A stretch of 64,000 nt of DNA from Ophelia neglecta (taxonomy: Eukaryota), in the NCBI GenBank assembly GCA_965285935.1, contig OZ260664.1, forward strand, positions 21,762,001 to 21,826,000. The letters run 5' to 3'. Positions 41,900-42,945 of the stretch are shown piece by piece. The notes under the pieces are model-generated. The model saw nothing but the letters and a program-made list of their open reading frames with translations, was not told the origin of the DNA and did no database searches. Position 1 is the first letter of the stretch; each line of letters opens with the position of its first letter. Position numbers and translations under genes: made by a program.

Positions 41900-42945
41900 T
41901 GTTGTTGGAGGTAGATCTCTCGTGATTGGTTGAGCCCTATGGGTCCACTTCCCTCTTGTTGGAGGTAGATCTCTCATGATTGGCTGAGCCCTATGGGTCC
42001 ACTTCCCTCTTGTTGGAGGTAGATCTCTCATGATTGGCTGAGCCCTATGGGTACACTTCTCTCTTGTTGGAGGTAGATCTCTCGTGATTGGTTGAGCCCT
42101 ATGGGTCCACTTCCCTCTTGTTGGAGGTAGATCTCTCATGATTGGCTGAGCCCTATGGGTCCACTTCCCTCTTGTTGGAGGTAGATCTCTCATGATTGGC
42201 TGAGCCCTATGGGTCCACTTCCCTCTTGTTGGAGGTAGATCTCTCATGATTGGCTGAGCCCTATGGGTCCACTTCCCTCTTGTTGTAGGTAGATCTCTCA
42301 TGATTGGCTGAGCCCTATGGGTACACTTCTCTCTTGTTGGAGGTAGATCTCTCGTGATTGGTTGAGCCCTATGGGTCCACTTCTCTCTTGTTGGAGGTAG
42401 ATCTCTCATGAGGGTGGCTGTCATGCTAGCGTCTTTTCCAAGACTTAAAGGCAGTCTCCCTGACCATATTCCTTAACTGTATATATCTACATCTAGTTAC
42501 GCGCATGTTGGGGATTCGCTGGGGGTCGCGGGTGCTTCTCGGCCTCGGGGGGCATGGTGCGGGGTCTCACATTTGGTGGTGACCTTGCGTCCTGTCCTGC
42601 GTGGCTTCCCGTCGCGTCTCGGTGGTTTCTCGGCATGCGTGTTGATTTATAATTAGCATAATGACTTAGTTTCTTGTGTTATGTATTATTGTTTTTTGGT
42701 CAAATAAAATGTTCTGAATCTGAATCTGAATCTGATTGGCTAAGCCCTATGGGTACACTTCCCTCTTGTTGGAGGTAGATCACTGGTGATTGGCTGAGCC
42801 CTATGTGTACACTTCCCTCTTGTTGGAGGTGGATCTCTCATGATTGGCTGAACCCTATGGGTCCACTTCCCTCTTGTTAGTGGTAGATCACTGGTGATTG
42901 GCCGAGCATTGTAGGTCCACCTGGCTGTTGGCTGTAGACCTCTGA
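41900..42945. repeat. 54-bp minisatellite interrupted by an insertion
   Basis: ATGATTGGCTGAGCCCTATGGGTCCACTTCCCTCTTGTTGGAGGTAGATCTCTC; about 9.5 units before 42412 and about 3-4 more diverged units after 42732. Confidence 0.95.
42412..42732 (+). mobile_element. Short retroposon (LINE or SINE) 3' fragment with (TGAATC)n tail
   Basis: Foreign 321-bp segment splitting a 54-bp unit. AATAAA followed by (TGAATC)3. TGA at both junctions (3-bp TSD or microhomology). Long internal hairpin. Confidence 0.7.

What the first reader, a model, noticed from the sequence alone, without database searches (positions are those of the whole stretch)
42499..42642. 144-nt A-depleted, G-U-rich hairpin in a retroposon 3' end: possible genomic fossil of A-to-I hyper-editing
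Seen: only 8 A in 144 nt. The outer arms ACGCGCATGTTGGGGATTCGCTGGGG and TCTCGGTGGTTTCTCGGCATGCGTGT pair at 25 of 26 positions, 10 of them as G-U. An inner stem (TGCGGGGTC/GACCTTGCG, TCAC/GTGG, loop ATTTG) is also wobble-rich. The fold therefore works as + strand RNA but poorly as DNA or on the other strand. It lies just upstream of AATAAA and a (TGAATC)3 tail. Established: ADAR converts A to I in dsRNA, reverse transcriptase copies I as G, and LINE 3' stem-loops recruit the RT. Inference: either a hairpin whose A-U pairs were turned into G-U by editing and fixed by retrotransposition, or an unusually long selected 3' UTR structure.
Basis: partly seen in the sequence, partly recalled or inferred. 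Interest (0 to 1): 0.72.

Follow-up and report, generated by a model that had tools for sequence, protein, structure and literature searches.

The report
Editing-worn hairpins in LINE tails
This A-poor hairpin is part of the tail of a young jumping gene (a LINE), many related LINEs in the same genome carry similar hairpins that fold only on the RNA strand, and their few remaining A letters change to G about three times faster than elsewhere, likely because the host's RNA-editing enzyme alters the RNA and the element copies the edits back into inherited DNA, round after round.

Summary
In detail: 8 A in 144 nt, sense-RNA fold z -6.9, antisense z -1.2. The stretch lies in the 3' UTR of a 5'-truncated copy of a young CR1-group LINE (14 copies at 95-100%, two with intact ORF1 and ORF2). 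It is a family feature, not an edit of this insertion. Ten of 22 related families carry such G-U-rich rods, on the sense strand only (12 rods: 352 G-C, 225 G-U, 98 A-U). This rod has a homologue in a distant family, with compensatory changes, so selection keeps it. Across 166 insertions A>G is the one transition clearly raised in stems (17 of 82 A sites against 129 of 2148 outside). A-U pairs survive at helix ends, and the host has an ADAR2-like gene. Against editing: no hyper-edited copy, no unedited source, no 5'-neighbour signature among surviving A, and no RNA data. Best reading: a selected hairpin worn A-poor by repeated A-to-I editing fixed by retrotransposition (0.55). The RT-binding stem is more likely a separate, shorter conserved stem upstream. 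The scan has noted editing-scarred LINE hairpins on other DNA before.

The parts
42412..42735 (+). 5'-truncated 3' end of a young CR1-group (L2/Crack/Daphne-type) LINE, inserted at a TGA in a 54-bp minisatellite; TGA stands on both sides (42409-42411 and 42733-42735)
   Evidence: 13 other copies at 95-97% run upstream into an RT ORF; full copies L033 and L035 have ORF1 (263 aa) and ORF2 (1074 aa, stop to stop); junctions
42412..42460 (+). conserved short core stem-loop; likely the RT recognition stem (inferred)
   Evidence: motif found in 22 of 23 family clusters; 21 representatives folded, 190 G-C, 132 A-U, 64 G-U; the 5' truncation falls at its first base
42461..42466 (+). TGACCA, predicted to pair with TGGTCA at 42697-42702 and close the domain that holds the rod
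   Evidence: fold of 42412-42735; similar complementary hexamers seen by eye in several families
42499..42642 (+). A-poor, G-U-rich RNA rod (the finding)
   Evidence: homologous rod in family D (z 8.4)
42697..42708 (+). TGGTCA closing arm and AATAAA
42715..42735 (+). (TGAATC)3 TGA microsatellite tail
   Evidence: same tail in sister copies
41902..42411 (.). 54-bp minisatellite, left of the insertion (host target, not part of the element)
42733..42907 (.). 54-bp minisatellite, right of the insertion

Best explanation
The hairpin is an old, conserved RNA rod in the 3' UTR of an active CR1-group LINE family, and it is likely A-poor and G-U-rich because ADAR edits its adenosines in the element's RNA and reverse transcription writes them back as G, over many rounds rather than in one burst. 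Shown: LINE context, sense-strand-only fold, recurrence in many families, pair-keeping change between lineages, a raised A>G rate in stems, and an ADAR2-like gene in the host. Inferred: that the A>G excess comes from editing; that A-U pairs move to G-U and then by U>C to G-C; that A-C mismatches are turned into G-C; and that selection keeps the pairing. The RT most likely binds the separate short stem at 42412-42460. The rod's own job is untested; most likely it stabilises or compacts the RNA's 3' domain, while its cDNA and antisense copies cannot snap back.
For: (1) Strand asymmetry, repeated: 12 rods in 10 of 22 representatives, none of this kind on the antisense strand, where no rod had more than 6 G-U. 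(2) G-U:A-U is 225:98 = 2.3. Background mutation rates (A>G 3.4, G>A 6.3 per 1000) predict about 0.54 (my arithmetic), and selection for stability would lower it further. (3) In 166 insertions of 8 families A>G variants occur at 17 of 82 stem A sites against 129 of 2148 outside (p 1e-5) and against T>C at 30 of 291 stem sites (p 0.02); G>A and C>T are 0.14 and 0.16 in stems, 0.13 outside. Rare variants: 15/1393 against 118/30372 (p 0.0008); in the 93 youngest copies 7/811 against 43/19465. A 3- to 4-fold excess is about what the pair ratio needs. (4) Three of four two-copy A>G pairs share no other derived change, so they look recurrent. (5) A-U pairs survive at helix ends (58 A-U to 41 G-U) but not in the middle (40 to 184; p 8e-13). 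Unpaired interior bases are A-poor too (23 of 215), and 1x1 mismatches are G-G 19, A-G 4, A-C 4, A-A 0 of 52. The short core stem keeps its A-U pairs. (6) Where most old copies differ from a young G-U pair by a transition they have A-U at 6 of 46 pairs and G-C at 0 of 46. (7) Pair-keeping change across lineages: 11 of 35 consensus pairs change on both sides, and 4 columns show A-U, G-U and G-C; shared stem variants are 32 pair-keeping to 5 pair-breaking transitions against 97 to 43 for singletons (p 0.04). (8) Five deaminase-domain loci, one ADAR2-like by recalled motifs.
Against: No RNA evidence: editing itself was not seen. Strict singletons give only 10/1393 A>G against 20/4963 T>C in stems (p 0.18) and 68/20061 in the UTR (p 0.034); the 56 copies of middle age show no excess (3/467); the age and frequency bins were chosen after the first look. 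The firmest ADAR signature, avoidance of a 5' G (PMC5625713, passages), is not seen: surviving A have 5' U 1.11 and 5' G 0.84 of expectation, and 5 of 15 rare A>G events follow a G. Lineage changes run both ways: A>G 6 and G>A 10 on internal branches in stems; 6 young G/old A against 4 young A/old G. No clustered hyper-edited copy (maximum 3). No unedited source among 29 matches. The 12 rods were picked by me for being G-C/G-U-rich, so their pooled A-poverty is partly circular. A-U at helix ends can arise from the fold running into AU-rich flanks, and G-G mismatches and UG/GU tandems are also favoured by stability (recalled).
Confidence: 0.55

Rival explanations
1. Selection alone: the element needs a long sense-RNA rod, and variants with G in place of A spread better, because an A-free rod escapes editing or dsRNA sensing, or because G-U pairs stop the cDNA from folding back. 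No editing is written into DNA.
For: Pair-keeping change dominates between lineages; A/G toggles both ways opposite U; the 5'-neighbour signature is missing; strict singleton asymmetry is not significant.
Against: Purifying selection cannot lift A>G above the background rate, yet it is 3- to 4-fold higher while the other pair-keeping transitions are near background. The excess is present in rare variants of the youngest copies, which selection has barely filtered. 12 of 22 representatives lack a rod.
Confidence: 0.25
2. One burst of hyper-editing per rod: an AU-rich inverted repeat, for example a small DNA transposon, entered a LINE UTR, was hyper-edited once, and has since drifted under selection.
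For: Most rods are unrelated to each other (1 of 66 comparisons at z 8.4, three at 2.8-3.3) and sit at different UTR positions. Loop-proximal segments are AU-rich and well paired. A perfect unedited inverted repeat lies in L154. The lead came from scan note e1-7810917.
Against: No unedited source was found with the most A-rich homologue as query (29 matches). Half of all pairs are G-C, which one burst on an AU-rich repeat does not give. Intermediate states exist across lineages and the A>G excess continues.
Confidence: 0.15
3. A G-C-rich inverted repeat decayed by C>T at CpG, or a chance fold of G/U-rich sequence.
For: G of G-U pairs sits in the CpG-type context more often than G of G-C pairs (51 of 225 against 49 of 352). 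G/U-rich shuffles already fold to -59 kcal/mol.
Against: z -6.9. DNA-level decay is strand-symmetric and would leave as many A-C as G-U; there are 4 A-C mismatches to 225 G-U pairs. Old copies have G-C at 0 of 46 young G-U pairs.
Confidence: 0.04

Closest known systems
A-to-G hyper-edited avian retroviruses (Rous-associated virus, avian leukosis virus inverted repeat), as reviewed in PMC12925331 (passage read)
   Same: ADAR-type A>G change in an inverted repeat of a reverse-transcribed RNA
   Different: There, nearly half of the A changed in single isolates against a known unedited parent. Here it is a non-LTR element, the change is fixed across whole active families, no parent is in hand, and the structure is conserved.
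APOBEC DNA editing of LTR retrotransposons fixed in vertebrate genomes (PMC4866542, passages read)
   Same: Host deaminase marks inherited through retrotransposition
   Different: G>A on cDNA, in LTR elements, spread along the element and damaging; here A>G, confined to RNA duplex, in intact families.
3' tail stem-loops of stringent L2-clade LINEs: ZfL2-1/ZfL2-2 (PMC4176376, abstract) and UnaL2 (PMC1636434, search listing)
   Same: Conserved stem-loop before a short repeat tail; the 49-nt core stem here fits this role
   Different: The 150-nt G-U rod is far longer, optional, varies in position and is unrelated between most families.
ADAR hyper-editing of repeat dsRNA across animals (PMC5625713, passages read)
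   Same: Long self-folding repeats are ADAR substrates
   Different: Those edits are seen in RNA only; the shared depletion of a 5' G is not reproduced here.
L2/Crack/Daphne group of CR1-type LINEs (bioRxiv 10.64898/2026.01.13.699120, passages read)
   Same: APE-RT ORF2; ORF1 with weak Transposase_22 similarity (E 0.073), as described there for Daphne
   Different: That text has no occurrence of 'hairpin' or 'stem'; the superfamily was not tested on a tree with references.

Membership tests
Non-LTR retrotransposon (LINE), CR1 group | ORF2 with endonuclease and RT | tested here: met
   RVT_1 E 2e-34; Exo_endo_phos E 0.0015, below its cut-off; relatives carry both domains
Non-LTR retrotransposon (LINE), CR1 group | Fixed 3' end with a microsatellite tail, variable 5' truncation, short or no target duplication | tested here: met
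Daphne/Crack superfamily | RT groups with reference Daphne or Crack sequences | not testable with these tools
   no named reference elements were returned; only the weak ORF1 hint and a recalled C-terminal cysteine motif
ADAR-edited retroelement fixed in DNA | Strand-specific A>G excess confined to duplex regions | tested here: met
   17 of 82 against 129 of 2148 sites, and against T>C 30 of 291; weaker for strict singletons
ADAR-edited retroelement fixed in DNA | Clusters of A>G against an unedited parent | tested here: not met
   at most 3 per copy; no parent found (only 29 candidates, DNA search)
ADAR-edited retroelement fixed in DNA | 5' G avoided at edited A | tested here: inconclusive
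   not seen among surviving A; 15 events run at 19.0 per 1000 after U, 11.0 after G, 4.6 after C
ADAR-edited retroelement fixed in DNA | Host encodes ADAR | tested here: met
   the ADAR2 label rests on recalled motifs
ADAR-edited retroelement fixed in DNA | Editing seen in RNA | not testable with these tools
   no RNA holder listed
Stringent LINE RT-recognition stem-loop | Present in every active family near the 3' end | tested here: not met
   a rod in 10 of 22 representatives at varying positions; met instead by the core stem
Stringent LINE RT-recognition stem-loop | Bound by ORF2 and needed for retrotransposition | not testable with these tools
   needs an assay

The most novel reading that the evidence does not exclude
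LINEs of this clade run a heritable editing ratchet: any long duplex in the 3' UTR is stripped of A by host ADAR at each retrotransposition, moving from A-U to G-U to G-C and healing A-C mismatches. This repeatedly builds editing-resistant rods that exist only as sense RNA, that the elements then keep, and that can move between distant LINE lineages.
Probability: 0.35. Interest if true: 0.8.

Novelty: new variant of a known kind. Interest (0 to 1): 0.62.

Why it matters
If right, RNA editing is a directional germ-line mutagen for LINEs. It shapes the base composition and structure of active elements, and leaves in DNA a readable record of past ADAR activity in species with no RNA data. The many young families with known remaining A sites make it directly testable whether a LINE RT copies inosine into inherited DNA. 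If selection alone is at work, it is still an RNA-only hairpin design that has arisen repeatedly and that I did not find in print.

Tried and rejected
RNA check: no RNA holder listed. Contigs of three runs of unrecorded kind from one sample carry the stretch but collapse the copies, so they say nothing on editing. Rfam: 2 matches far below gathering score. A covariance model of the A/D rod found, in 50 held loci, four fragments of known homologues at E 0.002 or better and two weak matches (E 0.06-0.09), one in family C; a genome-wide search with it was not available, so distant unedited sources remain open. Parsimony on four family trees gave no net A>G direction; the roots were midpoint or arbitrary, and the branch to young family D stayed unpolarised. 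The old-versus-young table includes misaligned flanks of truncated copies, so only its majority-of-old sites were used, and 2 of 22 old copies were skipped for low score. The A>G versus U>C comparison (19 against 26 sites, p 0.03) mixes filters's denominators and is approximate. The idea of a SINE with a fixed 5' end was rejected: sister copies extend upstream to different lengths. The ORF1 XhlA match is a coiled-coil hit below cut-off. Literature: 10 searches listed no paper on G-U-rich 3' UTR rods in LINEs or on ADAR edits fixed in LINE families; I saw titles and abstract starts only, most subscription journals are not searched, and the bioRxiv preprint's supplements were not seen. No passage on ADAR end or neighbour rules was found in PMC10666284, so the end-sparing rule, the A-C preference and the 3' G preference of human ADAR are recalled; PMC5625713 reports that invertebrates prefer a 3' A.

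Full report
Observation. The stretch is as described: 8 A in 144 nt, outer arms paired at 25 of 26 positions with 10 G-U, and 59 pairs in all (33 G-C, 19 G-U, 7 A-U). It folds as sense RNA at z -6.89 with 0 of 200 shuffles as good. It does not fold beyond chance as antisense RNA (z -1.24) and only weakly as DNA (z -2.23). Rfam has nothing at threshold.

What it is. A search of the own genome scored 40 of 114 candidates and gave 14 copies at 95-100% identity, the window's included. Sister copies run upstream into an RT frame and stop at different points. Two full copies have a 263-aa ORF1 and a 1074-aa ORF2 with RT and a weak endonuclease match. The window holds the last 324 nt (42412-42735), inserted at a TGA in a 54-bp minisatellite. 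The element is a CR1-group LINE. The weak Transposase_22 match of ORF1 fits the description of Daphne in bioRxiv 10.64898/2026.01.13.699120 (passages), but no tree with references could be made. The G-U pairs are shared by all young copies, so they were not made in this insertion; this copy differs mainly by a 7-nt deletion.

The clade. A search with the ORF2 end scored 150 of 2519 candidates. I used 130 of them, which fall into 23 clusters, and folded the 3' UTR of 22 representatives on both strands. The UTRs are 29-46% G+C. Ten representatives carry 12 long G-C/G-U-rich rods, which I picked by eye; none of this kind appears on the antisense strand. Pooled, they have 352 G-C, 225 G-U and 98 A-U pairs. 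They sit at different places, and only 1 of 66 pairwise comparisons is clearly homologous: the window family's rod and that of family D (z 8.4), which lies on the other side of the core stem in a family across a 99%-supported branch of a short ORF2 tree. A separate 49-nt stem is found in 22 of 23 clusters and has ordinary pair content. By analogy with the L2-clade tail stems bound by ORF2 (PMC4176376, abstract) it is the likelier RT handle. That is inference.

Selection on the rod. In 9 homologues from the A and D lineages (two of them probably duplicates of one insertion), 11 of 35 consensus pairs change on both sides, and four columns show A-U, G-U and G-C. Where most old copies differ from the young rod by a transition, all 15 changes keep the pair. 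Variants shared by several insertions are 32 pair-keeping to 5 pair-breaking transitions, against 97 to 43 for singletons. One caution: editing of A-C mismatches would also remove pair-breaking transitions, so this is not pure evidence of selection.

Editing signal. Of 204 loci from 8 families, 175 were independent insertions and 166 passed an 84% identity filter. A>G variants occur at 17 of 82 stem A sites against 129 of 2148 outside, and against T>C at 30 of 291 stem sites; G>A and C>T are about equal inside and outside. Rare variants give 15/1393 against 118/30372; the 93 youngest copies give 7/811 against 43/19465; the 56 middle-aged copies show no excess. Strict singletons are weaker (10/1393 against T>C 20/4963, p 0.18). 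Three of four two-copy pairs share nothing else and look recurrent. Background rates predict G-U:A-U near 0.54; a 3- to 4-fold A>G excess brings this to about 1.5-2, close to the observed 2.3 (my arithmetic). A-U survives at helix ends (58 to 41 G-U) and not mid-stem (40 to 184); interior unpaired bases are A-poor (23 of 215); G-G is the commonest 1x1 mismatch (19 of 52). Old copies have A-U at 6 and G-C at 0 of 46 young G-U pairs, and the CpG context covers 51 of 225 G-U pairs, so CpG decay is not the main source. The host has five deaminase-domain loci, one ADAR2-like.

Against. Surviving A lack a 3' G (0.48 of expectation) and favour a 3' U (2.0), but show no 5' pattern, although avoidance of a 5' G is the signature shared across animals (PMC5625713, passages). 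Changes between lineages go both ways. No copy is hyper-edited. No unedited parent was found. No RNA could be examined. Several compositional signs are also expected from stability or from how the rods were chosen.

Mechanism. Most likely a duplex forms in the AU-rich UTR, ADAR converts some of its A to I in the RNA of a source copy, and target-primed reverse transcription fixes them as G. Over many rounds mid-stem A is lost, U>C changes tighten G-U to G-C, and selection keeps the pairing. The end state is a stable rod that offers little to edit and cannot form in the cDNA or the antisense RNA. Editing and the rod's function are inferred, not shown. Odds: repeated editing with selection 0.55, selection alone 0.25, one founding burst 0.15, CpG decay or chance 0.04.

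Relation to what is known. A>G hyper-editing of an inverted repeat is on record for avian retroviruses (PMC12925331, passage), and APOBEC marks are fixed in LTR elements (PMC4866542, passages). The same review says ADAR1 restricts human L1 without evident editing. Ten searches listed no paper on such rods in LINE UTRs or on edits fixed in LINE families. The scan's own unchecked notes report like cases in other genomes and no look-alike of this sequence; they are leads, not support. What this case adds is recurrence across a clade, conservation of the rod, and a measured continuing A>G excess. What it lacks is an unedited parent and RNA. Verdict: a new variant of a known kind, interest 0.62.

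Noticed in passing
window 42412; families A, C, D, E: 5' truncations pile up at the first bases of the core stem: 12 of 55 truncated independent insertions end within 7 nt of it. For A and C the query began near there and biases the sample; in D and E it is 4 of 30 over about 1 kb. This may mark an RT stop or a stable processed 3' RNA domain.
   Followed up: partly
window 42412-42466 and 42697-42708; 22 of 23 clusters: A conserved core stem with a closing helix next to AATAAA is shared by families whose ORF2 ends are 44-64% identical to this one; no Rfam match.
   Followed up: partly
L139:760-921 versus window 42499-42642: The same rod lies upstream of the core stem in family D and downstream in family A, although their ORF2 ends are distant; a UTR module may have been swapped between LINEs.
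   Followed up: partly
L048, about 1903-2016: In family B the rod begins inside the last codons of ORF2 and holds the stop codon; in L115 the frame runs on through a G-rich rod as a glycine run.
   Followed up: no
L396:706-2226 (-): ADAR2-like deaminase domain in two long open frames; four more deaminase-domain loci exist.
   Followed up: partly
L154, 62 nt downstream of ORF2 (position 535 of the oriented locus): A near-perfect 62-nt inverted repeat with no G-U pair, folding equally on both strands; possibly a separate small insertion.
   Followed up: no
window, whole: 41 tandem-repeat rows, with many long GC-rich minisatellites (26, 34, 37, 41, 42, 54 bp); the full copy L033 also sits in a minisatellite.
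   Followed up: no
L015 and L017, 1-1443: An old fragment of this LINE tail lies just after a 481-aa ankyrin-repeat-like frame in two duplicated loci (the label is from reading the sequence).
   Followed up: no
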